A stretch of 64,000 bases of DNA, from positions 1 through 64,000 of the IMG/VR virus record IMGVR_UViG_3300029880_000008. One strand, 5' to 3'. A model generated the notes under the pieces. The model was not told the DNA's origin. It did no database searches and saw only the letters and a program-made list of their open reading frames with translations. The stretch is from a virus. The first letter of the stretch is position 1. Every line of letters begins with the position of its first letter. The position numbers and the translations under genes are program-made. This document shows positions 9,908 through 36,776 of this stretch, in pieces.

Positions 9908-9952
9908 ACGCATAAGTTAACCAATCAAAATTCTTGAAAAATGAAAGAAAAT

Positions 9953-10221: not shown

Positions 10222-10293
10222 ATGTGTGCAGCCTATCTTCACAGACGAGCTGCATTTTTAATTGAATAAATTTGAATACAATGAATTATACGT

Positions 10294-16983: not shown

Positions 16984-17246
16984 TCGTTTTTTACTTTTTT
17001 TTAATTTTACTGTAAGTCGGATTTCTCCGTTAAATGCTCATCGCCAATGTTATGGAAAGGTTTTTTGTCAGCAACACTGTTCCTACCTCACAGAACTGTT
17101 TAATCACTGACCGCAGAGCAACAGACTTGAACAAACATCCGTTGGTGCCTATATATTCTCTCCTAACGTAGCACCCGAAGTGCTTAGGCTAATCAACTTG
17201 GGCTTTTTCAAGCCCACAGGTCTTTAACCTGTGGGTTGTTGACACG
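16984..17246 (-). ncRNA. Candidate IscB omega-RNA (guide plus scaffold)
   Basis: ORF-free 263 nt directly 5' of iscB. Minus-strand hairpins: CCCACAGG..CCTGTGGG, GGGCTTGAAAAAGCCC, and CCTAAGCAC-TTCG-GGTGCTACGTTAGG with a UUCG tetraloop. Confidence 0.65.
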
Positions 17247-24213: not shown

Positions 24214-24609
24214 TTAGGCTTCCTGGTAAGCGAGAATCTGTATGTGACGCATCTCGAAATTGACGAAGATGTTAAGATATATGCCATCGTCAGTAAGGAG
24301 CGTGGTTCCGTTGTTCTCCTCGGTGATAATTTTCTTTTGTTCTGTGCCAATAAGATTATTCACCAAATCGTTTGCAACAATAGCAAGGCGTAGATTGTTC
24401 GCACAATCCTTTATCCATGTGACATCCATCGCATTGCCATATACCTCTGCGTGACAGGCGTTAGAATAGATAAAACCGACAGCCTCGTTGCATCTGTCGT
24501 CCGTATATTTACCTTCATCGAACATCTTCTCCCACAGAGACTCATAATAGAGTTCGTTCTCCATGTTGTAATTGTCCAACTTACACACATTTACATCTAC
24601 TATTTCCAT
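24214..24609 (-). CDS. Hypothetical early protein
   Basis: ORF trimmed to the cassette-associated Met (MEIVDV...). Confidence 0.55.
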   Translation of the reverse strand: MEIVDVNVCKLDNYNMENELYYESLWEKMFDEGKYTDDRCNEAVGFIYSNACHAEVYGNAMDVTWIKDCANNLRLAIVANDLVNNLIGTEQKKIITEENNGTTLLTDDGIYLNIFVNFEMRHIQILAYQEA

Positions 24610-24675
24610 AATCATTCTATTTAATTGGTTAATGTTGGGAGCGTGAAACAATAATGTTCCACGTCTTGTTCGGTT

Positions 24676-25110
24676 TTACACCGGCAGAGACACGATGTAT
24701 TCCTTCTTCTTCTTTCGTGTTCTGCTCTTCACAGTGAATCCACAAAAATCTCTCAGCCACCCGGCAGCATTGCCGATGAAAGGCTCGTTCACCATAAGGA
24801 TAGGACGGAGCATTCCGTTCTTCTTCATGAACTGATAGTCGGTGAAGTCGAACGGATCATCCAGGTCCTCACTCTTCTTTGCCCATATGTTCACGTCGAG
24901 ATAGTCGATGAAGTCTCCCTCTGGCGGGTTGTCCATCTCGATGAATCTCTTTGGAGTCAGGAGAATCGTTTCTTTCGCCTCATGGGTCATAAAGAAATTC
25001 TCTACAACCTCATTGAACTTATTCATGTCCATCTGTTTCTGGACAATGCCCTTTCTCTTCATGATGTCGGAAGCTTTGAGCATTTTTGTTCCTCTTCTTG
25101 CTGTTGCCAT
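24676..25110 (-). CDS. Hypothetical early protein
   Basis: 144-aa ORF with the cassette upstream. Confidence 0.55.
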   Translation of the reverse strand: MATARRGTKMLKASDIMKRKGIVQKQMDMNKFNEVVENFFMTHEAKETILLTPKRFIEMDNPPEGDFIDYLDVNIWAKKSEDLDDPFDFTDYQFMKKNGMLRPILMVNEPFIGNAAGWLRDFCGFTVKSRTRKKKKEYIVSLPV

Positions 25111-25169
25111 AATTCAAAATTTTAATTGGTTAGACATAGTACCCCGTCATTCCTGACGAGGATTTTTGG

Positions 25170-25874
25170 CTAGTGTGCAAGGAATCCTACCGCCTGCCCC
25201 TTACCGATGGACCAGCATAGTCTGTCTTCCTTCAGGCACTCTGTGCAGTTTCCGGTACACAGACGTGTTCCTTCCGGAGCAGACGTTCCGCTCTCGAAGA
25301 TAGGATGCGCCTCAGGGAATCCATGGCGGTTATCCATCTTAAGACCAAGCCATCCGCTGAATAGGATATGCATGTTCTCTGGGATTACATTGCCCTCATC
25401 GAGATACTCGTTGCATACATCGAACATCTTCGTGAACGCCAGGAACTTGGTATCCTTGTGCTTGCGTGCAATATCGCACATCTTGTCAAGATACCATTTA
25501 TCCTGGATATCACCACCGATATGGAATCGGAAGGCGCGAGGGAATCTGTAGTCGAGATACCCGTCAATCTCCTTGAAGTATCGCTCGGGATCCTCATGAT
25601 AGATTGCCGAGCTGATAGCTCTCGTCTTGATTACCTCCTTGTAGATAAGGTCGTTTCGCAGGTCGTAGCAGCTCTTTGCACAGATAGCGCAGTTGCCGCA
25701 GTCCATGACCGGGATGAGTGATATGGAAGGGATTGCTCCCAATTTTGTATTGCCATCGCTAATCTTGACGTGTAGGTTTTCTACGTTCTCTAATGCGTTC
25801 TCATAAGCTGCCTGTGCCTTTGACAGACGAGTCTTCATTCCTTCCTTACCTAATGTCCAGTAATTTCTACTCAT
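25170..25874 (-). CDS. Cys-cluster protein (possibly the GP88-like domain family)
   Basis: NTKLGAIPSISLIPVMDCGNCAICAKSCYD recalls the N.KLG...C..C...CY pattern of phage gp88-type proteins. There is a second cluster, CTGNCTEC. This is from memory and not searched. Confidence 0.35.
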   Translation of the reverse strand: MSRNYWTLGKEGMKTRLSKAQAAYENALENVENLHVKISDGNTKLGAIPSISLIPVMDCGNCAICAKSCYDLRNDLIYKEVIKTRAISSAIYHEDPERYFKEIDGYLDYRFPRAFRFHIGGDIQDKWYLDKMCDIARKHKDTKFLAFTKMFDVCNEYLDEGNVIPENMHILFSGWLGLKMDNRHGFPEAHPIFESGTSAPEGTRLCTGNCTECLKEDRLCWSIGKGQAVGFLAH

Positions 25875-26008
25875 AATTCTAATTTAAAATTGGTTAAACT
25901 TGTGGAACAAAAAACCGGCGTGTCTCACGACAGACCGGCTTGAACCATTTAAACAAAATTTAGTTATGATATGAGTAGTCAGCCGCTGCTAACGACTGAC
26001 CTGTTTGA

Positions 26009-26404
26009 CTAATCTTCATCTACTTTTACATTGTAGTGAAATCTTACTGTAAGGTAATCTGTGCTCAGAAAGAATGTATAGATTAAAGGCTCAGCCTGGC
26101 GTTCGTCGAGATACTGCTTCGTATCGTAATAGTATATGCTATTTTTTGATTCGCCAGTCAGTCGTTTGACAATCTCTCTACCCCACTCTGATGTAATCCA
26201 CGATCGAAGCTTCCTGATAGATAGGTAGTTTCCGTGATACTCTATCATTGTAGGTGCACCTCCGACAAATCCCAATGAAAAAAACTTATTGGTGAGATAT
26301 TGCGAATCGTCAAAGATGGTGTCTAGAAGTGATTCCTCGACGACATTCTTCCCGTCAATAGGAGCCTTCACATACTTTCTTGTATCTACATTAATTTCCT
26401 TCAT
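26009..26404 (-). CDS. Hypothetical early protein
   Basis: 131-aa ORF with the cassette upstream. Confidence 0.55.
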   Translation of the reverse strand: MKEINVDTRKYVKAPIDGKNVVEESLLDTIFDDSQYLTNKFFSLGFVGGAPTMIEYHGNYLSIRKLRSWITSEWGREIVKRLTGESKNSIYYYDTKQYLDERQAEPLIYTFFLSTDYLTVRFHYNVKVDED

Positions 26405-26629
26405 AATCCTTCATTTTATTGGTTAGACATAGAATCGGTTACCGAATCAGTAACCGACTTTTGGCTAGAATGATCCCCGGCTGGCGCCTTACTTTAATAG
26501 TTCGATCTAGAGAGCTTTAGCTCGAAGGATTACCTCCAGTAGTGACTGGAGGAGATCCTTCGTTGAAGAAGCTCTTGTGAATTTCTGCCGAGCCACCATT
26601 CTTTAGGCGGCGAACCTTACGTCTGATGA

Positions 26630-27688
26630 TTACTTGTTCTCGCTCTTGGCTTTCTTCCATTCAAGAATCTTGCCCTGGACGCTGATATTATTGTCCTTGA
26701 TAAGCTGCTTGAGTACACCGAGCATCTTCCAACCCTCTTCATCGTAGAGCTTGGCTTTAGACTCAAGTTCCTTCAGAGAATTGGCCTCTGACATCTTTCG
26801 TCCGTTCTTCATGAATCTTGCTCCATGGAACATGATGAGGTTTCTCATCGTGTAGTAGGAACCAGACCCTTTGTAAGCATGGATGAATGCATCTGCCTGC
26901 TTGGTATCCCACGCGAGATGCTTGCGGTTCTTGTTGAACTTGCGAACGGCATCGTAGAGATCCTTGTGGTCGTCTACAGTAGCCATCTTGTTGGCAAGGT
27001 CACGGAGAGGATTGTATACCTTTCTATCCAAGTCAGCGACAAAAATGTCCTCGTTCTGAAGACGTACGTAAGGATTGCCCTTGCAGGTATGCTTATATGT
27101 CTTCTTCTTGTTTCCATCCTTGTCCTCCTTGGTAGTGTAGATGCACTTGTCGTCAATGTAGCTTCTGAGCTTTTTGATGTAGTCAATAGCCATATCGTAT
27201 GCTACACAACCGTTGAACCAGCGATATCTCGCCTTTGTGTTCTCGTAGTCCTTGTGGTCACACATCTTCATCTGAGCGTAGAGCTCATTTTCAAGCATGC
27301 GCCACTGATACTCGTAGCCCTTGCGCTGCAACACCTCGTTGAATGACAGATAACTCTTATCCATGTCTCGCAACATGTGGAACATCTGACTCATCACCCA
27401 ACGACGGAAGAGCTTCCAGTTACTTACGTATCCACCCTCTATAATCTGCCTGCCTACCGCATCGATGGTTGCATCGTCCATATCAACAGGGACAGCCGCA
27501 CCATTTTCGATTTTGATAAGCTGATCATCACCGAGAGGGAAGTACTTACTTACGTCAACGCCTGCTGCCTTAAGAGCTTCGAGACGCATCTGCGCCTTGG
27601 TCTTCTTACCTGCACAAGCTGCATTAACCTCTACATTGTTAGCTACTACCTTAAGATTCTCACCAGTGATTGTTACAATCTGCTTCAT
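26630..27688 (-). CDS. Hypothetical early protein (352 aa)
   Basis: Long ORF with the cassette upstream. No motif recognised. Confidence 0.6.
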   Translation of the reverse strand: MKQIVTITGENLKVVANNVEVNAACAGKKTKAQMRLEALKAAGVDVSKYFPLGDDQLIKIENGAAVPVDMDDATIDAVGRQIIEGGYVSNWKLFRRWVMSQMFHMLRDMDKSYLSFNEVLQRKGYEYQWRMLENELYAQMKMCDHKDYENTKARYRWFNGCVAYDMAIDYIKKLRSYIDDKCIYTTKEDKDGNKKKTYKHTCKGNPYVRLQNEDIFVADLDRKVYNPLRDLANKMATVDDHKDLYDAVRKFNKNRKHLAWDTKQADAFIHAYKGSGSYYTMRNLIMFHGARFMKNGRKMSEANSLKELESKAKLYDEEGWKMLGVLKQLIKDNNISVQGKILEWKKAKSENK

Positions 27689-27747
27689 AATTCAATTAAT
27701 TTTAAATTGGTTATACTAAAAATTTATTTAACTCTAGTGGATGAGGC

Positions 27748-28200
27748 TTACGCCCCACCCTTGTTTGGCTCAATCCAGTCTCTGAGGATAATCAGATCCT
27801 TGTCGTTCTCGGACTTCCAGAACCATCTTCCCCATCTGTTCTCCCATGCAAGGTTGCCTCTTAGAAGCTGAATCAGTATGTATAGCTCCAGCTTACATCT
27901 AGCTACCTCCCGTCGCTCACCATACATCATATCTTCGTCTGAGAGCTCTTTCTCTGGCAAAGCCTTGAAGTAGTAGCGGCGATGGGATTCAGAACGCTCA
28001 GACGGCACAGAATGCTTGTATGCCTTATATCTCTGTTCTATTGCGAACAGGACTACTGCATGTGTCAGGTAAGGTGTATCTTTCGGCTTATCTTCCTCGG
28101 ACATCACTATCTTGCCATTCACTCTACATGTTCTCTTCTGGAAGTTGATGGTGAACTTTGCACCATTCTCAACTGCATTGATAATCTCGTCGTATGTCAT
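27748..28200 (-). CDS. Hypothetical early protein
   Basis: 150-aa ORF with the cassette upstream. Confidence 0.55.
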   Translation of the reverse strand: MTYDEIINAVENGAKFTINFQKRTCRVNGKIVMSEEDKPKDTPYLTHAVVLFAIEQRYKAYKHSVPSERSESHRRYYFKALPEKELSDEDMMYGERREVARCKLELYILIQLLRGNLAWENRWGRWFWKSENDKDLIILRDWIEPNKGGA

Positions 28201-28232
28201 AATTCTATTGTATTGGTTAATAGGGATAGTGC

Positions 28233-28478
28233 TTATTCTTGCACTATCAAATTGGCTTCTTCGAGTTCATCCTTACTCAGTACATCTTCGTCTTCTCCGA
28301 AGTGGATATAGAATTTGTCTCCGTTCGCCCACTCCATTGCACGCATATACAACCAGTGAGCCTCTTCGATAGAGAATCCGTCTGCGCTTACTGAATCAAG
28401 CATCTCGCCCATGCAAACTTCTGACGTTTCGTACTCTTTCTTGATTTCCTCAAGCTTCTTTAGTAATCTGCTGTTCAT
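28233..28478 (-). CDS. Hypothetical acidic early protein
   Basis: 81-aa ORF with the cassette upstream. Confidence 0.5.
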   Translation of the reverse strand: MNSRLLKKLEEIKKEYETSEVCMGEMLDSVSADGFSIEEAHWLYMRAMEWANGDKFYIHFGEDEDVLSKDELEEANLIVQE

Positions 28479-28499
28479 AATTCTTAAATATTGGTTAAT

Positions 28500-29672
28500 G
28501 GGAATGCGCTCAGAGAATCTGTTGCGTAACTATAAGGTCTTGATTAATACTGTATCTGAGTCCTGACGGATCCAGGTAATCACCTGGATTCTCAGGATGG
28601 TTGATACCGTATTGTACAATCTATTCTCCTTGCGCACCATATCCGGCTCGCAATAACCTAGACTTATCTCATGTATTATGTTGCATGGATATATGTTCTC
28701 GATTCGGTCCCGTGACTGGATACCTGTGCCTGCGGAGATATCGGCAGGCACAGGTATTCCACCTTACGGGATATTAAACCTCATACTCTTGATAAGTCGT
28801 GATGCAATTCACATGGTTGTTTGTAGGTACACTCATAGGTCTGTTGTCTTGCTACAGGCTGATGATTGGAACCAGCTGGGTTTACGCGGGGAGCATCGTT
28901 GCTCTAAGGATGACTCCCCGCGTTATTTACCCAGCGGGTATAAATACGCAACCTCCTTGTGTACCTCGTTTGGCAATAACGTTGTCTTCATCTGAGAGTG
29001 TGGCACGTAGCTATAGCAGCTTGATTCGAGGGCTGTTGTAAGTCGCCGGATGGCACTGGGATTCCAGTGAAGGCCGGCGGCATGTAAACAGCACTATAAA
29101 TTCACTCTCCTCTGAAGACTACCCTCGTGCTAGGGTAATTCCCTGACCGGTGGCTAGGCACAATACTTTATGTTTCTGATTTGACACAGGATTCGCCAGA
29201 ATAGATGATCCAGAGGTCGTAAGTAGTATACGACGCCCTCAGGATCAACTACTCTGGTTAAGAGACCTGTTGCATAAACTTCTGCCATCCATCAGGGAGT
29301 GGTGGTGTGCGCCACCGGTGGAAGTCATACGGACTGGCACATTTCTGTACTTCGTTGATGAGCTACGCCTTGTGCGTCATACGAAGGTCCCGAGTTATCT
29401 CAAGTCGTAGACTTGGGTAACTCGAGGCCCTTCAGTTTGAGGTCTTCGAGGCGTCGCCTGAATCTATCCGTCCTTCTCCCACGTCCGTGTGCTCGGTTAC
29501 AGAGTCTGCCGGTCAGAAGATACTGCGCATAGCTATATCAGATTGATAATATCCTGGTGGAGAGGATCGCTGGACCATCTCAGATTATGAGATGCTGTCC
29601 GCGATCTTCGAGACCGGATGTTTAAAACCTTGCGTCTTCATTCCGGCAAAATCCTTGCGCTAGGATGCTCAT
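28500..29672. ncRNA. Candidate large structured RNA or template region next to the RT (strand unresolved, probably co-transcribed on minus)
   Basis: 1.17 kb with no cassette-preceded ORF, against about 40-60 nt for all other gaps in the array. Long helices at 28561-28597, 28723-28754, 28874-28935, 29045-29078, 29217-29234, 29391-29424, 29575-29616, and a long-range pairing of 29509-29521 with 29614-29627. Confidence 0.4.
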
Positions 29673-30938
29673 CTACAGAGTATTCACCAATGTGTTGTAC
29701 GCTGCCCTGCTCGTCCGCAAGGCGTTCTGAGCACAGCCGATTGATAGATACCCCTTGATTTCGCTCTCTGTCTTACTCCTGTTAGCTTTCACGTTCCTGC
29801 CACGGCCTCGGTCTATGCAACCTACAGCCTGAGTCTTCACGTATCCGAGACCACCGACCTTTCTCTTGCCTGTCTTGACCGCACGGATGCAGTCCATGAC
29901 GAATGCGTTGAGTTTGTCGATGTCCTGTTTCACGTTTATGACTGGAAGAACCTGAGTCGACCAGGAATAATCGCAGTACCCCTTGTAGAGATACCTGTTT
30001 ACTGCATTGATGGCTTTCGTCATCGTGGTGTCACGTTTCTTTATCGTCCTCTTCTCAATCTCCTTCTGAAAGGTCTTGATGCGTGTGGACGACAAAGAGA
30101 TATTGTGACCCTTGATGGAATATCCGAGGAACTTGAACCAGTGATTAGCGTCAAGATACTCAACCTTCTTCGGATTGAGCGTCATCTGCATCATCTCCAG
30201 CTCGCTCTTCATGATATCCATGGCTTTCTCATAGTCTTCACCGACAAACAGCGTATCATCTGAATAGCGGACGTAATATCCGTTAAGCTTAGATAGCTTG
30301 TCGTCAAGATGATAGAGAATGACATCAGCCAGCCATGCAGCAACAGAGCACCCCTGCTTGAGGGACTGATACTTCTCACAGAGGTTATTGTCCTCATCAA
30401 AATAGATATCTGTGTGATAGTAGTCACGAATGACATCTATCAGCGCAGATTTTCCGTACTTCTCCTCTACCTTGTCAAATGCCCAGTCGATGAACCGAAT
30501 GGGCACAGAATCAAAGTACTTGGAGAAGTCACCTTTCCATCCGATGATTTTTCCCTCTGCCGAGTATATTATCCGAGACACATCTTGCACCACACGACCG
30601 CAGCCGATACCCTTTTGGTATGACGTACAGCGCGGATGCACCATCTCTGGCATCAGCTCGAACAGGAGGTCGTTTGCTATACTCAAAAGGATTCTATCTA
30701 CAGGCTCATTCACATAGACAGTACGGAAATCTCCGTTGTCTTTAGGAATCTTTGCTGTGTGTGGCGGCATTATCTTGTAATTGCCGCTCTTGATCCTCTG
30801 ATACATAGCCAGACGAGCCTTTGGTGTTGTCAGCTGATACATTACTGCTTTGTTCATGTCCTTGAATAAGCCTTTCTCGATAGCATACTGCCATCTGGCT
30901 TTCTCAAAGAACATTTCTAGGATTCTGTCTTCATTCAT
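29673..30938 (-). CDS. Reverse transcriptase (group-II-intron-like or retron-like palm, thumb with maturase-X-like motif)
   Basis: RT motifs: KIPKDNGDFRTVYVNEPVDRILL (1-2), SYQKGIG (3), GDFSKYFDSVP (A), LKQGCSVAAWLADV (4), YVRYSDDTLFVG (YxDD), LNPKKVEY...FKFLGYSI (6-7). The thumb has AVNRYLYKGYCDYSW, compared with RGWxNYY. Confidence 0.85.
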   Translation of the reverse strand: MNEDRILEMFFEKARWQYAIEKGLFKDMNKAVMYQLTTPKARLAMYQRIKSGNYKIMPPHTAKIPKDNGDFRTVYVNEPVDRILLSIANDLLFELMPEMVHPRCTSYQKGIGCGRVVQDVSRIIYSAEGKIIGWKGDFSKYFDSVPIRFIDWAFDKVEEKYGKSALIDVIRDYYHTDIYFDEDNNLCEKYQSLKQGCSVAAWLADVILYHLDDKLSKLNGYYVRYSDDTLFVGEDYEKAMDIMKSELEMMQMTLNPKKVEYLDANHWFKFLGYSIKGHNISLSSTRIKTFQKEIEKRTIKKRDTTMTKAINAVNRYLYKGYCDYSWSTQVLPVINVKQDIDKLNAFVMDCIRAVKTGKRKVGGLGYVKTQAVGCIDRGRGRNVKANRSKTESEIKGYLSIGCAQNALRTSRAAYNTLVNTL

Positions 30939-30970
30939 AATTCTTATGTTTTGGTTATTGTGCGCAGTCC

Positions 30971-31150
30971 TTAGCTGCGCTTTTTAGGCAATGTTATTTC
31001 ATCGCAGGGGAAGCACTGGTCTATAGGCCACCAGTATTCATTATCAATTCCCGCGAATCCTCTTTCCTCTGAAACGTGAGTGACAACGTGTTCCTTTGAT
31101 TGGGAATGTATGTCGCAGAATACCCTCGTTCCTACTTTGATTTTCTTCAT
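30971..31150 (-). CDS. 59-aa hypothetical protein directly upstream of the RT
   Basis: Hand translation: MKKIKVGTRVFCDIHSQSKEHVVTHVSEERGFAGIDNEYWWPIDQCFPCDEITLPKKRS. Cassette upstream. One residue under the track cutoff. Confidence 0.45.
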   Translation of the reverse strand: MKKIKVGTRVFCDIHSQSKEHVVTHVSEERGFAGIDNEYWWPIDQCFPCDEITLPKKRS

Positions 31151-31200
31151 ATCTCTAATATTTTTGGTTATTGGTAGGGAGATTGCTCTCCCCGTTTGGC

Positions 31201-31438
31201 TTAGTCGATGTGCTGGAGTGCTACGCTGTCATCTTCTTCGGATTCTCTCCAGTACTCCTGATCTGGTTCGATCTCGATAACCTCACCTGAGAAATTGTCA
31301 GCGTCAAGAATAATATCGCTATTATTATAGGCATCCTGCACTTTCTGTACGGCTTCATTCTCACTCTCAGCATCAACGCTGACTACCTTGTTCAAATGTT
31401 CTGTGACTGATACGTAATATCTCTTCATAATCTTTAAT
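31201..31438 (-). CDS. Hypothetical acidic early protein
   Basis: ORF trimmed to the cassette-associated Met (MKRYYVSV...). Confidence 0.5.
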
Positions 31439-31478
31439 AATTTGGTTAATGATGTCAGAGGGATTGCTCCCTCCGTTT

Positions 31479-31736
31479 TTAGGCTAATGCGTTCAATACT
31501 CTGTGGGCGTTGTATGCGACAGGATTGCTGTACTTTGCTTTCTCCCACTTTTTACGCTCACAAACTTTCAGGCAATACTCATGTGCTATATTCTCTGATA
31601 GTGCATCGAACGTGTTGTGTGTAATATCTGATGGCTTACCGAAATAAACTCTGTAACCATCCCTGTAGCATACTATACGTCTGCCCAGTCTGTAGATGGT
31701 TCTACTGCCCTTCTCTACAAATGTAATTCTTTCCAT
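31479..31736 (-). CDS. Hypothetical early protein
   Basis: ORF trimmed to the cassette-associated Met (MERITFVEKG...). Confidence 0.5.
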   Translation of the reverse strand: MERITFVEKGSRTIYRLGRRIVCYRDGYRVYFGKPSDITHNTFDALSENIAHEYCLKVCERKKWEKAKYSNPVAYNAHRVLNALA

Positions 31737-31783
31737 AATTCTCTGTATTTGGTTATTGGCAGGTAGCCAAATGGCTACCAATT

Positions 31784-32116
31784 TTAGGCTCTGTTCCATG
31801 CTTCCCACGCTTCATTCGTGTTCTTGGTGATTGCCTCGTTCCAAAGCTTCTCCATGTTGTAGAAAATTTCCTGAAATGCTTTAGGGGTATCCTTCGGATC
31901 AATCTTCTTGCCGAAATACGGGCGTCCACATCTTCTTTCGTCGTGCTCCCAGATGCACCGTATCATTCCCGTCTCCGTTGGAGTGCATCCGAGGAATGTT
32001 CCCATTGTACCGAATGTCTTTTCTCTAAGCCACTTCGGATAAGGAACGTAGATTGTCCACGCATCCACGCAGTCACGGAACTTCTTTCTTGTGTCGTGAT
32101 AAAGTTTCAATTTCAT
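31784..32116 (-). CDS. Hypothetical early protein
   Basis: ORF trimmed to the cassette-associated Met (MKLKLYHD...). Confidence 0.5.
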   Translation of the reverse strand: MKLKLYHDTRKKFRDCVDAWTIYVPYPKWLREKTFGTMGTFLGCTPTETGMIRCIWEHDERRCGRPYFGKKIDPKDTPKAFQEIFYNMEKLWNEAITKNTNEAWEAWNRA

Positions 32117-32165
32117 AATTCTTTGTAATTTGGTTAATGGAAGAGGAGCATGCAAGCTCCCCTTG

Positions 32166-32987
32166 TTAGGCTGTTTCTTTTAGTTTGATTCCATTCTCTT
32201 CGAGAGCGTCTTTAATCAGCTCGTCAGAGTCCTCGTAGTACTCTCCCCAGCAGGAATCAATCTGCTCCCAGTCGTAGTCGTCCTCCGGCTCACGACCTAT
32301 TTCCGTGAAGACTTTCTTGTAATGGACTTTCTTCTCTAAGACGAACCCCTTAACATCTCCCCACATCCAAAGACCTATGCACTTAACCTCATGCTCAAAT
32401 AGGTCCAAGGCTCGCTTTCTCCAGTTTTTTGTATTAGTGTCACAATACTTTGAGAAACGCTTCTTGTCGCAGTAGGCATATCCGCTGACATAATCTCCCT
32501 GGTTGTATCCAGTAGAGGACCACTCGTAGAATGCAATATCCTTACAATCGTGCAGAAGGTACGTGAAATCGTCCTCTTCGAGGATATCGCAAAGTTCCTC
32601 TCTATAGTCGAATCTCTTCAAGTCGCTCGGGCAGAACTCTTCGTGGTTATACCACTCACCCTCGTACAGACTTTCAAGATACCACATGCGGTCACTCTTG
32701 TCATAGCGCATACGGTAATTGTCGACGTTTTCACTATTGATATAATCAATAATCTTCTTTTGTGACACGTAGTTACAAACTAGATCCTTCAATGCATCCT
32801 CCGCATTTTTAGCGTTGACTTCGCTGCTACAACCACGAGAAAGCCACCTGTTGTATCCGTAATCGGAATAGTCCCAGAAGTAAACTCCCACCAAATCCCA
32901 TTCTGTGCAAGGGCATTCGGCATCCTCATCCTGGTAAATGGTGATTCTGTAATCACCAATCTCCTTCTTTGCAAATTCGTAACTCAT
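32166..32987 (-). CDS. Hypothetical strongly acidic, aromatic-rich early protein
   Basis: ORF trimmed to the Met at 32987 (MSYEFAKK...). Many D/E/Y/W residues. Confidence 0.55.
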   Translation of the reverse strand: MSYEFAKKEIGDYRITIYQDEDAECPCTEWDLVGVYFWDYSDYGYNRWLSRGCSSEVNAKNAEDALKDLVCNYVSQKKIIDYINSENVDNYRMRYDKSDRMWYLESLYEGEWYNHEEFCPSDLKRFDYREELCDILEEDDFTYLLHDCKDIAFYEWSSTGYNQGDYVSGYAYCDKKRFSKYCDTNTKNWRKRALDLFEHEVKCIGLWMWGDVKGFVLEKKVHYKKVFTEIGREPEDDYDWEQIDSCWGEYYEDSDELIKDALEENGIKLKETA

Positions 32988-33042
32988 ATCTAATATCATT
33001 TAAATGGTTTAACATTGAATATCCCCATGCTAGGGGATATTG

Positions 33043-33582
33043 TTAGGCTTCCTCATAATCTTCCTCCATCATGGAGTGAACCTCTTCAAGCTCGTTCGAG
33101 AAATTGTACTTGATGTTGTACGTGCCGAAGGCCTTGAAATACCATTCTTCGAGGTACGCTCTGTCCTTGTTAGCCTGCTCGCTGTCCTCTGCGGAATCAA
33201 GTCGGGCTACCATCTGAGGATACAAATCGTAGTAATCGTCGCCATCGTAGTCTGATGCCCACCAAACACCTGTTCTGCGCTTAGGGTAGTCCTCGTACAG
33301 ATTGGCAAAATTGCCATTCATGTGCTGGTCATTAAGATGTAGATATTTCTTCATTTCCTTGTTTGCCTTATGGGTAAACTCCCACGCAAGAGACTGGATA
33401 TTCTTTTCGAATACATCTGCAATGTATTCTTCCAGATCTTCTGCGTCATCGAAATTTTCAAGACACTCACGATAGAGGCTCTCGATAACCGCGGCAAAAC
33501 TTGCCACACCGATATAATCGGCTACTTTCTCGACAACTTCACCCTTGTTGTTCATAACAACTTCTACAATATTCTTTTCCAT
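33043..33582 (-). CDS. Hypothetical strongly acidic early protein
   Basis: 179-aa ORF with the cassette upstream. Contains DDAEDLEEY and a C-terminal MMEEDYEEA. Confidence 0.55.
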   Translation of the reverse strand: MEKNIVEVVMNNKGEVVEKVADYIGVASFAAVIESLYRECLENFDDAEDLEEYIADVFEKNIQSLAWEFTHKANKEMKKYLHLNDQHMNGNFANLYEDYPKRRTGVWWASDYDGDDYYDLYPQMVARLDSAEDSEQANKDRAYLEEWYFKAFGTYNIKYNFSNELEEVHSMMEEDYEEA

Positions 33583-33634
33583 AATTCATCTGTTTAATGG
33601 TTCATAATGGTTCCCCACATTATCGTGGGGAGGT

Positions 33635-33874
33635 TTAGCCACATATGGCAATGTCGCCATAATTTCTGAAGAAATGCTTGTACGCCTCAAGACCACTGGC
33701 AGCTTTCAAGTCTTTGACCTCTAGCTTACCGGTATCCTTGCGTACCTCTGCAATAGAGTATGTATTGTCGTGCGTCCACTTGATGAGGTCCACACGCCTA
33801 ACAGGATTCTCTACTGACTCTACGATTTTACACTTCAGTAAATCGTCATTCAGGATTTTCTCTAATTCACTCAT
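33635..33874 (-). CDS. Hypothetical early protein
   Basis: 79-aa ORF. Confidence 0.5.
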   Translation of the reverse strand: MSELEKILNDDLLKCKIVESVENPVRRVDLIKWTHDNTYSIAEVRKDTGKLEVKDLKAASGLEAYKHFFRNYGDIAICG

Positions 33875-33883
33875 AATTATAGA

Positions 33884-34039
33884 TTAATTATAGTTACACA
33901 TTATTTCTGTCTCACTGATAATTTCAGCACAATACTTGCAGCGATGGCACATTATGTAGCCTTTTGCCAGCAATTTGCTGAACTTCGGATATGGGCATTT
34001 CTCGCCCATGCCAGCTCTCGTAATCTCAATTTTCTTCAT
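33884..34039 (-). CDS. 51-aa Cys-rich (zinc-ribbon-like) peptide
   Basis: Hand translation: MKKIEITRAGMGEKCPYPKFSKLLAKGYIMCHRCKYCAEIISETEIMCNYN. Cassette upstream. Confidence 0.4.
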   Translation of the reverse strand: MKKIEITRAGMGEKCPYPKFSKLLAKGYIMCHRCKYCAEIISETEIMCNYN

Positions 34040-34096
34040 ATTTCAATCTGTTTGGTTAATAGAAATCCACACCCGTGAGAGTGAGGATTGTTTTGG

Positions 34097-34561
34097 CTAA
34101 TCACCGAAATCGCTTTCGTCCTGATCGTACCACCAGTCCTGGAATCGATTCGCAACCTCTTCCAATGCATACTTAGCAAATGTGTCGTAGATATTTCTGC
34201 TCTCGCCCTCGTTAAAAGGAGCATACAGAGCCTTGCCGATAGCATCATAGGTGACGGATTTGTCGTCCTTGAAATTCCCGAAGCCCTTAATCATCGTGAT
34301 AAGGTCTTCTCCTAAATCATCGGCAAGCTCATGCATATTCTCCATGATAGCACTCTTGTTCTCGTTCCAGAACTTGCTTGTTTGAGAATGATAACAGAAT
34401 CCAGTGTACCCCTCATTGGCATTTCTGACCTTATCGAGCGTATTAAGCATTGTGTCTTCATTAACACCGCCAAGCTGCTCTACTACGGCATATGCCATCT
34501 TTACGAATGATGGATTATCATTTTCCTTGATAAACGCATCCCATACTTTCTGTATATTCAT
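34097..34561 (-). CDS. Hypothetical acidic early protein
   Basis: 154-aa ORF with the cassette upstream. Confidence 0.55.
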   Translation of the reverse strand: MNIQKVWDAFIKENDNPSFVKMAYAVVEQLGGVNEDTMLNTLDKVRNANEGYTGFCYHSQTSKFWNENKSAIMENMHELADDLGEDLITMIKGFGNFKDDKSVTYDAIGKALYAPFNEGESRNIYDTFAKYALEEVANRFQDWWYDQDESDFGD

Positions 34562-34621
34562 ATTTCTGTATTTTGGTTGATAATAGAAACGAGCAAGCGC
34601 ACCATACGCTTACCCGTAATT

Positions 34622-34840
34622 TTAGCCGAAAACCCAGATAGCCGTAGTTCTTGCACAAATGGCATACAGCTTTCCGCTGTGACCACGGAACAGCATTCCG
34701 TTGCATCCGTACACACCGGAAGAATAGCCTACCTGACTATATTCTTCCGGGATGGCTGCACGGCTTGAACTGTGTGTTATATCCTTGGCAGCTCCTACTC
34801 TAACGAGTCTCTTCAACTCTTTCTGTGTCATTTTCTCCAT
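34622..34840 (-). CDS. Hypothetical early protein
   Basis: 72-aa ORF with the cassette upstream. Confidence 0.5.
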   Translation of the reverse strand: MEKMTQKELKRLVRVGAAKDITHSSSRAAIPEEYSQVGYSSGVYGCNGMLFRGHSGKLYAICARTTAIWVFG

Positions 34841-34902
34841 AATTCTTTAATTTTGATGATTTAACATGGTTTCTGTGCAGTCTATCTGCACAGAATGTTT
34901 GG

Positions 34903-35079
34903 CTAGAACTTGCGAGGGCGCATGCACGATTGCTCAATCTCCTGAGCCTTTTTGTCTGCACGTGCTACGCGTCTGAAATACTCGCTCTTGTCGAGATTCT
35001 TGCGTCTGCACTCCTCGCTGATAACTGCCTTGTGACTCGCTACGAGCCTGGCAAGGAACTTTCTGTCTCCGTCTGTCAT
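34903..35079 (-). CDS. 58-aa basic early protein
   Basis: Hand translation: MTDGDRKFLARLVASHKAVISEECRRKNLDKSEYFRRVARADKKAQEIEQSCMRPRKF. Cassette upstream. Preferred over track ORF 34934..35158, which is in another frame. Confidence 0.45.
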   Translation of the reverse strand: MTDGDRKFLARLVASHKAVISEECRRKNLDKSEYFRRVARADKKAQEIEQSCMRPRKF

Positions 35080-35142
35080 AATTCTGAATTTTGATTTGGT
35101 TAATAATAGAAGCAGGACACAGGACGTGCCCCGCTGTTTTGG

Positions 35143-35289
35143 CTACTTGCCACCGCACGCAATACTATGAGGACAGCAATGAATCTTGCCATCCGTCAAT
35201 CCGTGAAAGCAGCACCCTACACATCTCTCTGTGACTATATCCCACTCTCGCTCTATTCCGTGTCTGTCAGTTACTCTTACTGTTTCCAT
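35143..35289 (-). CDS. 48-aa Cys-rich peptide
   Basis: Track ORF 35143..35418 trimmed to the cassette-associated Met (METVRVTDRHG...CVGCCFHG...CCPHSIACGGK). Confidence 0.45.
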   Translation of the reverse strand: METVRVTDRHGIEREWDIVTERCVGCCFHGLTDGKIHCCPHSIACGGK

Positions 35290-35348
35290 AATTCTATATG
35301 TTTTGGTTAATAGCAGGCAGCACATTATCGTACTACCCATTTTTTTGG

Positions 35349-35618
35349 CTAGAGATTGTACACCGGACTTTCTGAAGCACACAGAATCGTAGGACCGGTG
35401 AGGATGGAGAACGCACAAGGGTCGAAACTATCGACTTTCTTCATGCTCTCTATCTTCTTCTGTACTACATCACGTATGGATGACAGATTAAGTCTGCCGT
35501 CGATAGGCATAATAGAATCCATGCCCACCATTTCCACAACGCTCACCTCATCGGTGAATCTCATGTTCACAAGGTCAAACTTGTTAATCTTATGATAAAA
35601 CTGAATCCACTTGCTCAT
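35349..35618 (-). CDS. Hypothetical early protein
   Basis: 89-aa ORF with the cassette upstream. Confidence 0.5.
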   Translation of the reverse strand: MSKWIQFYHKINKFDLVNMRFTDEVSVVEMVGMDSIMPIDGRLNLSSIRDVVQKKIESMKKVDSFDPCAFSILTGPTILCASESPVYNL

Positions 35619-35667
35619 AATTCTACATTTTTGGTTTATAGGAGAGGGAGAAATAACTCCCTCAATT

Positions 35668-35955
35668 TCAGGCTATGTACTTCTTGAGAAATTCTGCGAG
35701 CTTATTGTATTCATCGTCAATTTCCTCCTTGTTATCCACATGAAAGAAATTTGCGGTACAGCTGTCTTTTATGTTAGCCGTGCCATCAAAAAAGACAGCA
35801 GCATGAGCAGACATAGAGCCAGTGTCGCCGTCTAATCTGACAGTAAGGCTCACACCTGGCAGATTCTCTGCCAAATCTCTCTGAATTTCCTGCAACTGCG
35901 GTAGGATGGTAGAACGTATGTACTCTACATTCTCCTTGTATTCTTCATCTATCAT
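35668..35955 (-). CDS. Hypothetical early protein
   Basis: 95-aa ORF with the cassette upstream. Confidence 0.5.
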   Translation of the reverse strand: MIDEEYKENVEYIRSTILPQLQEIQRDLAENLPGVSLTVRLDGDTGSMSAHAAVFFDGTANIKDSCTANFFHVDNKEEIDDEYNKLAEFLKKYIA

Positions 35956-36007
35956 AATCTATAATTTTTGGTGAATAATTGTATGCGTGACAATCGCCAC
36001 GCACATT

Positions 36008-36184
36008 TCAGCTCATGCACAATACTGCAATCTCAGAGAAGCTCTTGGAAATAGCCTCCTTGCTACGATAATCTCTGTAGCCTCTGGTATTATTATTGTG
36101 CCACTGGCGTGCAGCAATCTTGATCTTCTCCATCTCATGCATAAGCGCACGCTCAAAATTCTTCTGTGATTTTCTGTCTAACAT
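36008..36184 (-). CDS. 58-aa basic early protein
   Basis: Hand translation: MLDRKSQKNFERALMHEMEKIKIAARQWHNNNTRGYRDYRSKEAISKSFSEIAVLCMS. Cassette upstream. Confidence 0.45.
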   Translation of the reverse strand: MLDRKSQKNFERALMHEMEKIKIAARQWHNNNTRGYRDYRSKEAISKSFSEIAVLCMS

Positions 36185-36207
36185 AATTCTTTTGCTTAAT
36201 TGGTTAT

Positions 36208-36574
36208 ATTATCGTACTGCCTAGATTTCTCCAAGCAGAATTTAGCTAAATGTTTCCAAGCACAATTATCGTACTTTCCAAATCTGTCACGCTCCAGGCA
36301 GGATGAAATTCTCCAAGCGGAGCGTGGATCGCCACATCTCTCTGAAGAACCACCTGCCAATTATCGTACTGCTCCAGAATATTCCAAGCACAATTCCCCA
36401 AAATATTCCAAGCAGAATAATGGCAATATTCGTACTTGCTAAACACAACAGAGCAGGAACGCTCTGAATAAATCCAAGCACAATTATCGTACTTGAATAA
36501 ATAATCTGTCTTGCTTTCATATCTATATTTTTTTTGGTAATTGTTCCGTAGCCACGCACGACAATTATCGTACT
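36208..36574. repeat. Irregular array of ATTATCGTACT / CCAAGCA(C/G)AAT repeats
   Basis: ATTATCGTACT at 36208, 36265, 36360, 36483 and 36564. Variant ATATTCGTACT at 36426. One outlier at 35324. The longer unit CCAAGCACAATTATCGTACT occurs at 36257 and 36474. Partial CCAAGCA(C/G)(A/G)A copies lie near 36231, 36314, 36384 and 36409. Confidence 0.7.
36287..36520 (-). CDS. Possible 77-aa hydrophobic protein overlapping the repeat array
   Basis: Cassette-associated Met: MKARQIIYSSTIIVLGFIQSVPALLCLASTNIAIILLGIFWGIVLGIFWSSTIIGRWFF... The competing frame 36246..36596 has no cassette. Confidence 0.4.
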   Translation of the reverse strand: MKARQIIYSSTIIVLGFIQSVPALLCLASTNIAIILLGIFWGIVLGIFWSSTIIGRWFFREMWRSTLRLENFILPGA

Positions 36575-36592
36575 GGCTACAGATTTTTAGGC

Positions 36593-36727
36593 TCACGCCA
36601 CGCAGAATAATGTAAGCACACCATTCTTTAGCGACCCGAATTCTACGTGACTCAAAATCTCCTGAGCATCTGCAATGATACTCTCAACCTCGCACATATC
36701 GAGGCATTTAACTCTTAGCGTACTCAT
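36593..36727 (-). CDS. Possible 44-aa peptide
   Basis: Hand translation: MSTLRVKCLDMCEVESIIADAQEILSHVEFGSLKNGVLTLFCVA. Cassette upstream. Confidence 0.35.
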   Translation of the reverse strand: MSTLRVKCLDMCEVESIIADAQEILSHVEFGSLKNGVLTLFCVA

Positions 36728-36776
36728 AATTCTAATATTTTTGGTTATTGTTCCCTACACGCGTAGGGAGATTAGG

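What the first reader, a model, noticed from the sequence alone, without database searches (positions are those of the whole stretch)
28500..31150. Phage early-operon reverse transcriptase followed by about 1.17 kb of ORF-free, helix-dense sequence
A 421-aa RT (29673-30938, minus strand) has complete palm motifs, including RYSDD, and a group-II-maturase-like thumb (NRYLYKGYCDYSW). It sits inside an array of small phage early genes and uses the same leader cassette as its neighbours.

Every other intergenic gap in this roughly 16 kb array is about 40-60 nt. Immediately 3' of the RT stop there are 1173 nt with no cassette-preceded ORF. That stretch has many long helices: 28561-28597, 28723-28754, 28874-28935, 29045-29078, 29391-29424, 29575-29616, and a long-range closing stem pairing 29509-29521 with 29614-29627. 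It also looks more G+C-rich by eye.

The layout does not fit known RT classes:
- Retron and DRT2/DRT9 ncRNAs are short and lie upstream of the RT.
- A group II intron would need about 600 nt of domains I-III upstream of the ORF and a domain V downstream. I found neither.
- A DGR would need Avd and a TR/VR pair. I saw neither.
- No recognisable effector gene is adjacent.

This could be a new phage RT plus large ncRNA or template system, acting in anti-defence, superinfection exclusion or cDNA synthesis.
Basis: partly seen in the sequence, partly recalled or inferred. Interest (0 to 1): 0.8.

Follow-up and report, generated by a model that had tools for sequence, protein, structure and literature searches.

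The report
Known phage UG27 retroelement, hairpin-RNA array
The reverse transcriptase and its 1.2-kb gene-free neighbour are a complete copy of the UG27 system already described in human-gut phages, and the gene-free stretch is a tandem array of seven related RNA hairpin units whose function is still unknown.

Summary
A 421-aa RT (29673-30938, minus) is followed by 1194 nt with stops in all six frames. That stretch folds far better than shuffles (z = -11) and is richer in G+C.

The claim that it fits no known RT class is wrong. The RT matches PADLOC RT_UG27 end to end (E = 4e-227). The two conserved downstream genes match RTas346 (27748-28200) and RTas337 (26630-27688). Mestre et al. 2022 (PMC9226505) defined this system in about 1,450 gut-phage genomes, including a putative ncRNA in this intergenic region.

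What I add: the gap is not one large fold. It is a head-to-tail array of seven paralogous hairpin modules of 136-166 nt on the RT strand. An eighth module follows RTas337. Each has conserved 5' (GCRCAAGGAG-like) and 3' (AATCAAG-N5-TATAG-N2-AYGYRMC) handles around a variable, compensated hairpin. Seventy-odd divergent loci (RT 54-69% identical) carry 2-7 detected modules, usually 4-7. Cross-clade covariation is strong. No Rfam family matches.

Group II intron, retron, DGR, decayed-ORF and recoded-ORF readings are rejected. Function is unknown; I infer that the modules are RT-bound templates or primers. Bacteroides phage BS-TP1 is a cultured carrier.

The parts
29673..30938 (-). UG27-class reverse transcriptase, 421 aa, with a YSDD active site
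   Evidence: ORF. PADLOC RT_UG27 E = 4.2e-227 over residues 3-421. Pfam RVT_1. Catalytic residues are invariant in 46 homologs.
28479..29672 (-). Non-coding array of seven tandem hairpin modules (D1-D7), read on the RT strand
   Evidence: No ORF, with stops in all frames. MFE z = -11. 413 predicted pairs, 94.7% paired, 93 compensated, against 26-36 when partners are slid. 23% of pairs are compensated, against 9-10% in coding controls.
29505..29650 (-). Module D1 (3' handle motif at 29523-29548)
   Evidence: CM R1 hit 29492-29669, E = 1e-3. HMM hit. Folds alone with z = -5.3. 13 compensated pairs.
29318..29482 (-). Module D2 (3' handle motif at 29334-29360)
   Evidence: 3'-motif HMM hit, 18.6 bits, E = 0.0016. 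Helices. 8 compensated pairs. Motif alignment.
29140..29298 (-). Module D3 (3' handle motif at 29154-29181). This is the weakest sequence match.
   Evidence: Helices. Folds with z = -4.8. 14 compensated pairs. The motif is seen in the alignment, but the HMM gives only 4.8 bits.
28984..29119 (-). Module D4 (3' handle motif at 29000-29026)
   Evidence: CM R1 hit 28969-29139, 34 bits, E = 4.5e-8. HMM hit. z = -5.1.
28825..28966 (-). Module D5 (3' handle motif at 28841-28867)
   Evidence: CM R1 hit 28827-28965, E = 3e-4. z = -5.7. 16 compensated pairs.
28662..28798 (-). Module D6 (3' handle motif at 28678-28704). Most close relatives have one extra module of about 160 nt right after it.
   Evidence: CM R1 hit 28663-28812, E = 4e-3. 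z = -5.6. The insert is seen in the alignment.
28493..28658 (-). Module D7, the last and most widely conserved. Its 3' handle is at 28519-28545. Its base overlaps the leader cassette of the next gene.
   Evidence: Source of model R1. That model's best hits in divergent loci, where checked, are the last module before RTas346. nhmmer gives cross-clade homology.
28233..28478 (-). 81-aa ORF between the array and RTas346. It is not a conserved part of the system.
   Evidence: Found in only 14 of 82 divergent loci. No family in Pfam, PHROGs, PADLOC or NCBIfam.
27748..28200 (-). RTas346 accessory protein (150 aa), function unknown
   Evidence: PADLOC RTas346 E = 1.9e-61. Present in 73 of 82 divergent loci. 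In 68 of them it lies downstream of the RT with the array, where detected, directly upstream. AF2 pLDDT 77 with no fold match.
26630..27688 (-). RTas337 accessory protein (352 aa), function unknown
   Evidence: PADLOC RTas337 E = 2.2e-112. Present in 70 of 82 divergent loci. No Pfam, PHROG or PDB match. AF2 pLDDT is only 56.
26460..26620 (-). Solitary eighth module (D8) in the spacer after RTas337 (3' handle at about 26480-26506)
   Evidence: CM R1 13.4 bits. HMM 10.4 bits. The spacer folds at -80.3 kcal/mol, z = -6.75. Handle motifs are visible and 97% of cells are paired in 53 relatives. 18 equivalent post-RTas337 motif hits occur in other loci.

Best explanation
Identity. This is a complete UG27 system, a known phage-borne member of the UG/Abi reverse transcriptases. 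It sits in the early operon of a tailed gut phage whose host is probably Bacteroides. The order is RT, then seven ncRNA modules, then an unrelated 81-aa ORF, then RTas346, then RTas337, then one more ncRNA module.

What is shown. The ORF-free stretch is a tandem array of paralogous hairpin units of 136-166 nt, most likely transcribed with the operon. Each unit has a conserved two-part handle: a 5' GCRCAAGGAG-like motif, and an asymmetric 3' internal loop reading AATCAAG-N5-TATAG-N2-AYGYRMC, with closing stems. This handle flanks a long hairpin whose sequence drifts while its pairing is kept.

What is inferred about mechanism. The conserved handle is the docking site for the RT, possibly together with RTas346 and RTas337. 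The RT uses each unit as template and/or primer, so that a set of structured cDNAs or RNA-DNA hybrids is made early in infection. These would serve the phage, for example in counter-defence or host takeover. They would not defend a host. The last module abuts the start of the next gene (RTas346 in most loci, the 81-aa ORF here) and may also gate its translation.
For: Identity:
- RT_UG27, 752 bits, full length.
- RTas337 and RTas346.
- The literature description matches: UG27 in gut phages, no defence-island association, and a putative ncRNA between the RT and the accessory gene (PMC9226505).
- The window carries phage genes: TerL, portal, head, tape measure and primase.
- A 66.7%-identical RT with the same layout occurs in Bacteroides phage BS-TP1.

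Array:
- The model built from D7 finds D4, D5, D1 and D6 in the window, all on the RT strand. D2 and D3 share the handle motifs.
- In 82 divergent loci, 329 of 350 3'-motif hits lie between the RT and RTas346, spaced about 150-180 nt apart and usually 4-7 per locus. Eighteen more lie just after RTas337. Overall there are 406 hits on the RT strand and 7 on the other.

Structure:
- In the cross-clade alignment of 106 modules, 88.6% of cells are paired against 52.7% in shuffles. 37 of 39 pairs are compensated. The covariation score is 0.75, against 0.06-0.11 when partners are slid.
- Within the window's clade, 93 pairs are compensated against 26-36 when slid, and each module has 8-16.
- Paired columns evolve at 0.112 differences per site, against 0.15-0.23 at four-fold degenerate sites of the neighbouring genes.

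Strand:
- G.U outnumbers A.C 180 to 61 across clades, with one conserved G.U pair.
- All genes of the operon are on this strand.

RT competence: the YSDD motif and motif-A aspartates are invariant.

Term counts in an unreadable 2026 preprint ('UG27 ncRNA' x11, cDNA x24) are compatible with cDNA synthesis, but I could not inspect them.
Against: - Nothing here shows transcription, RT binding or cDNA synthesis. The mechanism is an analogy with retrons, DRT2 and DRT9.
- Within the window's own clade the G.U versus A.C count is symmetric (1213 against 1482 over the union of both strands' predictions). The strand assignment therefore rests on the cross-clade set, which was aligned with a sense-strand model.
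- In three loci the array lies 4-5 kb from the RT but directly upstream of RTas346. Its primary partner could therefore be RTas346 and not the RT.
- D3 and D8 match the module models only weakly.
- Anti-defence is a guess. The only support is the phage location, the early operon, and a DpnD/PcfM-like neighbour.
Confidence: 0.55

Rival explanations
1. The array is an RNA scaffold, decoy or regulatory element that works without being reverse-transcribed. The modules would bind RTas346 or RTas337, or a host factor, for instance as a sponge for a host nuclease or immune sensor. Alternatively they would control translation or stability of the downstream accessory genes. In this reading the RT acts on some other substrate.
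For: - The array tracks RTas346 even when it is separated from the RT (L226, L241, L243).
- Modules flank the RTas346-RTas337 pair on both sides.
- The last module ends at the leader of the next gene.
- Only structure and a short handle are conserved. The hairpin sequence is not.
Against: - In 68 of the 73 divergent loci with RTas346, the RT lies on the same strand upstream of it, and the array, where detected, sits between the two. Mestre et al. define RT plus clusters 337 and 346 as one system.
- Every characterised ncRNA-associated UG/Abi RT that I know of (DRT2, DRT3, DRT9) uses its ncRNA as template. That is my own knowledge and was not tested here.
- The catalytic residues are strictly conserved, so polymerisation on some template is under selection.
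Confidence: 0.25
2. The element works at the DNA level. The repeats would be iteron-like or single-strand hairpin signals, for example a replication origin, a primosome or single-strand-initiation site, or a packaging signal, and not an RNA.
For: - Within the window's clade wobble counts are symmetric between strands, as expected if both strands, or the DNA, matter.
- The units are tandemly repeated with a regular period.
- Local GC skew flips to positive over 28.8-29.6 kb.
Against: - Across clades G.U exceeds A.C three to one, and a G.U pair is conserved.
- Units of 136-166 nt with long irregular hairpins and an asymmetric conserved loop do not resemble 17-22-bp iterons.
- Cumulative GC skew has no turning point here.
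- The element is always on the transcribed strand of the RT operon and is tied to specific protein genes in very different phage backbones.
Confidence: 0.07
3. It is a decayed or recoded protein-coding gene, or a cluster of selfish palindromic repeats (MITE/REP-like) that happened to accumulate in a spacer.
For: - Its size (about 1.2 kb) is gene-like.
- Gut phages often reassign stop codons.
- One database representative (P0122, 1872 aa) reads through from a UG27 RT into a helicase-like region.
Against: - All three stop codons occur 1-14 times in every frame, and no suppressor tRNA is present.
- No homologous locus has an ORF in place of the array.
- The region evolves more slowly than synonymous sites, with compensated pairs.
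- Motif hits are confined to the RT-RTas346 interval and the post-RTas337 spacer, and are not scattered over the 64-kb window or the other loci.
Confidence: 0.02
4. It is a group II intron, retron, DGR or DRT2/DRT9-type element with displaced partner elements.
For: - The RT's nearest solved relatives are group II intron RTs (E = 3e-32), Cas6-RT-Cas1, and the 9ioa entries, which I take to be DRT9 (1.8e-29).
- The thumb is maturase-like.
- Each module has a closing stem plus a long hairpin, which loosely resembles a retron msr-msd.
Against: - NCBIfam scores fall far below the cut-offs: group II RT 100.9 against 300, retron St85 42.5 against 235, Drt2 43.8 against 390.
- PADLOC gives UG27 752 bits, against at most 112 for any other class.
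- No Rfam group II, retron or other family matches, even at E <= 5.
- No copy of any part of the gap exists elsewhere in the window, so there is no TR/VR pair, and there is no second RT.
- No consistent stop-free concatemer frame exists, so there is no sign of a DRT2-style ORF.
Confidence: 0.02

Closest known systems
UG27 system of the UG/Abi reverse transcriptases (Mestre et al., NAR 2022, PMC9226505; PADLOC models RT_UG27, RTas337, RTas346)
   Same: Everything that defines it is here: the RT class, both accessory proteins, an intergenic structured ncRNA after the RT, and residence in human-gut phage genomes with no defence-island context. This locus is a typical member. Its RT cluster alone holds more than 6,500 database sequences.
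   Different: No difference in kind. The paper's main text speaks of a putative ncRNA with three long stem-loops. Here the region resolves into 7+1 paralogous modules, and usually 4-7 in other clades. I could not see the paper's Supplementary Figure S6, nor a 2026 preprint that treats the 'UG27 ncRNA'. The array description may therefore be new or may already be published.
DRT9 (UG28) and DRT2 (UG2): defence RTs that reverse-transcribe a dedicated ncRNA
   Same: A stand-alone RT without fused effector domains is paired with a conserved structured ncRNA in cis. By profile score the UG27 RT is nearer to Drt9 (97 bits) than to Drt2.
   Different: Those are host defence systems with a single ncRNA upstream of the RT. 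UG27 is phage-encoded. Its ncRNA is downstream, is repeated 4-8 times, and comes with two extra proteins. No Drt2-type open concatemer frame exists, and I saw no obvious homopolymer template.
Retrons (msr-msd ncRNA plus RT plus effector)
   Same: Each module has flanking complementary strands that close a long, sequence-variable hairpin next to a conserved recognition element. The operon has accessory proteins.
   Different: The RT fails retron models. No Rfam retron RNA matches. The units are arrayed in tandem and lie downstream of the RT. No branching-G context could be identified.
Group II intron RT/maturases
   Same: They are the closest solved structures by sequence (GsI-IIC RT, E = 3e-32), and the thumb motif is similar.
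   Different: The score is one third of the TIGR04416 cut-off. There are no intron RNA domains and no En or D domain. The RT is not embedded in an intron.

Membership tests
UG27 system (UG/Abi Class 2; Mestre 2022 / PADLOC) | The RT matches the UG27 profile over its full length and better than any other RT class | tested here: met
   RT_UG27 E = 4.2e-227, 752 bits, residues 3-421 of 421. The next best is RT_UG26 at 112 bits.
UG27 system (UG/Abi Class 2; Mestre 2022 / PADLOC) | Associated protein cluster 337 is present in the locus | tested here: met
   ORF 26630-27688 matches RTas337, E = 2.2e-112, over profile positions 2-316 of 316.
UG27 system (UG/Abi Class 2; Mestre 2022 / PADLOC) | Associated protein cluster 346 is present in the locus | tested here: met
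   ORF 27748-28200 matches RTas346, E = 1.9e-61, over profile positions 3-147 of 147.
UG27 system (UG/Abi Class 2; Mestre 2022 / PADLOC) | A structurally conserved non-coding region lies between the RT and the accessory gene | tested here: met
   1194-nt array. 37 of 39 module pairs are compensated across clades, and 93 pairs are compensated within the clade. I could not compare it with the authors' own covariance model, which is not available.
UG27 system (UG/Abi Class 2; Mestre 2022 / PADLOC) | Encoded in viral (human-gut phage) genomes and not in defence islands | tested here: met
   TerL, portal, major head, tape measure and primase are in the window. More than 400 IMG/VR contigs carry close relatives. 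A homolog occurs in Bacteroides phage BS-TP1.
Group II intron | The RT/maturase reaches the curated family score (TIGR04416) | tested here: not met
   100.9 bits against a cut-off of 300.
Group II intron | Intron RNA domains (D1-D4, D5/D6) flank the ORF | tested here: not met
   No Rfam group II family at gathering score in the window, nor at E <= 5 in 26350-29750.
Retron | Retron-type RT plus an msr-msd ncRNA | tested here: not met
   Retron St85 model 42.5 bits against a cut-off of 235. PADLOC retron RT models score at most 43 bits. No Rfam RNA match. The 2'-5' branched product cannot be tested with these tools.
Diversity-generating retroelement (DGR) | A template repeat / variable repeat pair with adenine-specific differences | tested here: not met
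   A sensitive blastn of the gap against the whole 64-kb window finds only its own internal inverted repeats. The rest of the roughly 87-kb genome is outside the window.
Diversity-generating retroelement (DGR) | Avd-type accessory protein and a DGR-clade RT | tested here: not met
   No Avd or other Pfam domain in the nine neighbours. The RT is assigned to UG27. No second RT is in the window.
DRT2 / DRT9 | The RT reaches the family's curated score | tested here: not met
   NCBIfam Drt2 43.8 bits against a cut-off of 390. PADLOC Drt9 97 bits against 752 for UG27.
DRT2 / DRT9 | Template that yields a stop-free concatemeric ORF (DRT2) | tested here: not met
   No consistent open frame in concatenated modules. 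D2, D7 and D8 have none on either strand even with up to 30-nt trimming at each end.

The most novel reading that the evidence does not exclude
The tandem-array organisation may be new: 4-8 diverged hairpin modules that are conserved position by position, each with a bipartite handle, plus a solitary module after RTas337. In this reading each module is a separate retron-like substrate, so one phage RT makes a panel of distinct structured cDNAs early in infection to neutralise host immunity. That would be the first multi-template retroelement, and the first counter-defence role for a UG/Abi RT.
Probability: 0.2. Interest if true: 0.75.

Novelty: already known. Interest (0 to 1): 0.4.

Why it matters
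UG27 is one of the most abundant reverse transcriptases in the human gut virome, yet I could find no function for it in the literature I could read. It is the clearest case of a UG/Abi RT kept by phages and not by their hosts.

This analysis shows that its non-coding partner is a modular array with a defined handle motif. It shows which two proteins travel with the array, and that the array follows RTas346 even when it is separated from the RT. Together these give concrete constructs to test: single modules, handle mutants and an RT active-site mutant. They also point to a cultured phage-host pair in which to test them (BS-TP1 on Bacteroides salyersiae BG8).

For the scan itself the lesson is calibration.

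Tried and rejected
Searches that gave nothing useful:
- Megablast of the region against GenBank phages found no match.
- A related-loci scan with the divergent-RT alignment returned only the same 97-99% identical loci, because hits are ranked against the first sequence. That scan was wasted.
- Single divergent RTs as queries gave 1 and 0 loci.
I solved this with a hand-designed degenerate DNA pattern that excludes the window's clade.

Literature:
- The 2026 preprint 10.64898/2026.09.22.753630 could not be opened under any identifier. Term and phrase counts were the only access, and they do not settle what it reports.
- The supplements of Mestre et al. are not held.
- One literature query was too broad and gave nothing useful.

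Hypotheses tested and dropped:
- Recoded ORF.
- Uniquely hypervariable gap. The flanking genes are equally divergent, and the array evolves more slowly than four-fold degenerate sites.
- The 351-aa ORF in L160 as a homolog of the 352-aa gene. It is not.
- DGR repeat.
- DRT2-like open concatemer frame.
- Rfam similarity at lenient thresholds, where the only hits were chance miRNA and lncRNA matches.

Other limits:
- The strand test within the window's clade was inconclusive.
I replaced it with nhmmer profiles of the 3' handle.
- The structure prediction of RTas337 was too poor to search with (pLDDT 56).
- RTas346 (pLDDT 77) has no informative fold match in PDB or BFVD.


Full report

Yes. The 421-aa ORF at 29673-30938 (minus strand) is present. 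It carries a full RVT_1 domain.

Between its stop codon and the next start codon (28478) lie 1194 nt. The longest ORF on either strand there is 105 aa. TAA, TAG and TGA all occur in each of the six frames. The window's three tRNAs (Thr, Met, Arg) are not suppressors. A hidden gene under stop-codon reassignment is therefore excluded.

On the RT strand the stretch folds to -442 kcal/mol. Forty dinucleotide shuffles give -337 +/- 10 (z = -11). The value is also lower than each of 15 same-strand windows of equal length. G+C rises to 0.48-0.51 from about 0.41-0.46.

The leader cassette is real. ATTAACCAA-like sites precede the minus-strand genes from 24.6 to 36.7 kb, with 34 matches against 17 +/- 4 expected.

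The proposed long-range stem is only the closing stem of the first unit, with a slightly different partner.

**2. What is the RT?**

It matches PADLOC's RT_UG27 model from end to end (E = 4.2e-227, 752 bits). The next classes score far lower: UG26 at 112 bits and Drt9 at 97 bits.

It fails the curated cut-offs for other classes:
- group II intron RT: 100.9 against 300
- retron St85: 42.5 against 235
- Drt2: 43.8 against 390
- Drt3a and Drt4 also fail.

UG27 is a published class. Mestre et al. (NAR 2022, PMC9226505) report the following:
- It is encoded mainly in predicted human-gut phages of Bacteroidetes and Firmicutes, in 1,447 dereplicated genomes.
- It is not enriched in defence islands.
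- It is associated with two domain-less protein clusters, 337 and 346.
- It has a putative structurally conserved ncRNA in the intergenic region after the RT, which CRISPR spacers sometimes target.

The two solid genes downstream of the gap match the PADLOC models for exactly those clusters. ORF 27748-28200 matches RTas346 (E = 2e-61). ORF 26630-27688 matches RTas337 (E = 2e-112). The window therefore holds a complete, typical UG27 system.

**3. Context**

The window is a tailed-phage genome. It has a large terminase, portal, major head protein, tape measure and primase, plus two integrase-like genes.

More than 400 IMG/VR contigs encode close relatives of the RT. The 90%-identity cluster nearest to it has more than 6,500 members.

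A cultured carrier exists. Bacteroides phage BS-TP1 (PQ571274.1, host B. salyersiae BG8; PMC12694917) has a 66.7%-identical RT, gp79, which the record labels 'tail protein'. It is followed by 1349 unannotated nt, then an RTas346 homolog (gp80), and further on an RTas337 homolog (gp82).

**4. What travels with the RT?**

A degenerate DNA pattern designed to miss the window's own clade brought in 120 loci with RTs 38-77% identical. Of these, 82 had enough downstream sequence to analyse.

- RTas346 is present in 73 of the 82, and RTas337 in 70.
- None of the upstream neighbours is conserved.
- The 81-aa ORF at 28233-28478 recurs in only 14.

The RT-to-RTas346 distance is usually 700-1470 nt with no convincing ORF. 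Independent gene calls in other assemblies show the same uncalled interval.

**5. The gap is an array, not one big RNA**

*Conservation and covariation in the window's clade.* An alignment of the gap from 49 distinct close relatives shows alternating conserved blocks and variable, indel-rich blocks. RNAalifold predicts 413 pairs. Of these, 23% have changes on both sides, against 9-10% in two coding controls of the same divergence. With partners slid by 1-3 columns, pairing drops from 94.7% to 34-39%, and compensated pairs drop from 93 to 26-36.

*Modular layout.* The helices group into seven consecutive self-contained hairpin domains. Only 6 of 413 pairs cross a domain border. The domains are:
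- D1: 29650-29505
- D2: 29482-29318
- D3: 29298-29140
- D4: 29119-28984
- D5: 28966-28825
- D6: 28798-28662
- D7: 28658-28493

Six of the seven, folded alone, give z-scores between -3.6 and -5.7. D2 gave -2.1 on truncated coordinates.

*The domains are paralogs.* A covariance model built only from D7 finds D4 (E = 4.5e-8), D5 (3e-4), D1 (1e-3) and D6 (4e-3) in the window, all on the RT strand. Aligning the seven units shows a shared bipartite signature that also includes D2 and D3. The 5' side reads GCRCAAGGAG or similar. The 3' side reads AATCAAG-N5-TATAG-N2-AYGYRMC.

*An eighth unit.* The 225-nt spacer after RTas337 holds another module at about 26460-26620.

*Size variants.* Most close relatives have one more module than the window, between D6 and D7. 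One near-complete contig has only 510 nt between the RT and the next gene.

**6. The array is a hallmark of the family**

The D7 model gives 106 hits in the divergent loci, often two to four in tandem. All the hits I checked against the RT's orientation lie on its strand.

Their alignment shows the following:
- 88.6% of cells are paired, against 52.7% in shuffles.
- 37 of 39 pairs are compensated.
- The covariation score is 0.75, against 0.06-0.11 for slid partners.

This alignment was fitted to the model, which favours the structure. The margin is nevertheless very large.

A profile of the 3' handle alone gives 406 hits on the RT strand and 7 on the other. Of the 350 hits at 8 bits or more, 329 lie between the RT and RTas346 with a spacing of about 150-180 nt, usually 4-7 per locus. 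Eighteen more lie just after RTas337.

In three loci (L226, L241, L243) other genes separate the RT from RTas346. There the array stays directly upstream of RTas346, 4-5 kb from the RT.

No Rfam 15 family matches the modules, even at E <= 5.

**7. Constraint and strand**

In the window's clade the array evolves at 0.135 differences per site. Paired columns run at 0.112 and unpaired columns at 0.175. Four-fold degenerate sites of RT, RTas346 and RTas337 in the same genomes run at 0.15-0.23. The array is therefore constrained mainly for pairing. It is not hypervariable, although it looked so at first because the loci had been selected for RT identity.

The strand test within the clade is symmetric. 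Across clades G.U outnumbers A.C 180 to 61, and one basal pair is G.U in 53 of the 81 distinct sequences. Together with the uniform orientation, this favours a folded transcript of the same sense as the operon. I hold this at roughly 85%.

**8. Rivals excluded**

- Decayed or recoded ORF.
- Group II intron, retron, DRT2 or DRT9 membership.
- DGR. No copy of any part of the gap exists elsewhere in the 64-kb window. There is no Avd-like neighbour and no second RT.
- DRT2-style never-ending ORF. There is no consistent open frame in concatenated modules.
- Scattered selfish palindromes. The motif is confined to two specific intervals.

A DNA-level role such as an origin or a single-strand signal is not excluded, but the cross-clade wobble bias and the absence of a skew turning point disfavour it.

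**9. How it probably works**

*Shown:* an intact RT, a conserved modular structured element on its strand, and two co-inherited proteins.

*Inferred:*
- The bipartite handle is the protein-docking site.
- The RT uses the modules as templates or primers, by analogy with retrons, DRT2 and DRT9, all of which reverse-transcribe a dedicated ncRNA. That analogy rests on my own knowledge.
- The products serve the phage early in infection.

The main rival is that the array is a scaffold, decoy or translational regulator centred on RTas346 and RTas337. Its linkage to RTas346 supports that reading.

The accessory proteins give no help. They have no Pfam, PHROG, NCBIfam or PDB relatives. RTas346 (pLDDT 77) has no informative fold match. 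RTas337 modelled poorly (pLDDT 56).

No UG27 structure is in the PDB copy. The nearest solved relatives are group II intron RTs, Cas6-RT-Cas1 and the 9ioa entries.

**10. Novelty and score**

The system, its phage habitat, its accessory genes and the existence of an intergenic ncRNA are all published. The finding is therefore already known.

The resolution of that ncRNA into a tandem array of paralogous handle-plus-hairpin modules may go beyond the 'three long stem-loops' of the 2022 main text. The same applies to its linkage to RTas346 and to the solitary module after RTas337. I could not check this against the 2022 supplement.

I also could not read a September 2026 preprint that mentions UG27 74 times, 'UG27 ncRNA' 11 times and cDNA 24 times.

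Interest is moderate at 0.4. This is a rediscovery, but of an abundant and functionally unsolved phage retroelement, now with sharper anatomy and a cultured model.

Noticed in passing
window 15727-17243 (-): A HEARO/omega-type RNA (Rfam RF02033, 150.7 bits, 17029-17243) lies directly upstream of a 418-aa HNH-endonuclease-like ORF (15727-16983, phrog_119). This looks like an IscB-type RNA-guided nuclease element inside the phage genome.
   Followed up: partly
window 9640-10858 (-): Three phage-encoded tRNA genes: Thr(GGT), Met(CAT) and Arg(CCT). None is a suppressor.
   Followed up: yes
window 13946-15124 (+) and 21914-22933 (-): Two tyrosine-integrase-like ORFs (phrog_1). This suggests a temperate lifestyle or an integrated mobile element. 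The cultured relative BS-TP1 is described as temperate.
   Followed up: no
window 31201-31548 (-): An ORF in the same early operon carries a DpnD/PcfM-like domain (PF14207, E = 5e-18). From my own knowledge, this domain occurs in the early-expressed leading regions of conjugative elements. That would fit an early host-takeover or anti-restriction context.
   Followed up: no
window 24600-36750 (-): A conserved leader cassette containing ATTAACCAA(T) sits shortly before the start codons of most small genes in the operon (34 matches against 17 +/- 4 expected). The base of module D7 pairs with part of the cassette of the next gene.
   Followed up: partly
protein P0122 (representative library; no contig available): An 1872-aa predicted protein has a UG27 RT (68% identical) at its N-terminus and SNF2 / helicase-C signatures around residues 1000-1420. 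It is either a real fusion or a gene-calling read-through in a recoded phage.
   Followed up: no
L281 4495-5757 (GenBank PQ571274.1 79351-80613): The UG27 RT of Bacteroides phage BS-TP1 (gp79) carries the product name 'tail protein' in the record, with reverse transcriptase appearing only in a secondary note. The 1349-nt array after it is unannotated.
   Followed up: yes
L059 (IMGVR_UViG_3300045988_095041), RT-to-next-gene interval; also alignment columns 1076-1246 of the clade alignment: There are natural array-size variants. One 84.8-kb contig keeps only 510 nt (about three modules). Most close relatives have one module more than the window, inserted between window 28662 and 28661.
   Followed up: partly
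L226, L241, L243 (array 4-5 kb downstream of the RT); L249, L280 (RTas346 upstream of the RT): These are rearranged UG27 loci in which the module array stays next to RTas346 and not next to the RT. This hints that the array's closest functional partner may be RTas346.
   Followed up: partly
window about 26416-26445 (-), 3' end of the post-RTas337 spacer: After the eighth module there is a perfect 12-bp hairpin (GUCGGUUACUGAUUCGGUAACCGAU, coordinates approximate) without a U-tract. It could be a processing site or a terminator-like element closing the system.
   Followed up: no
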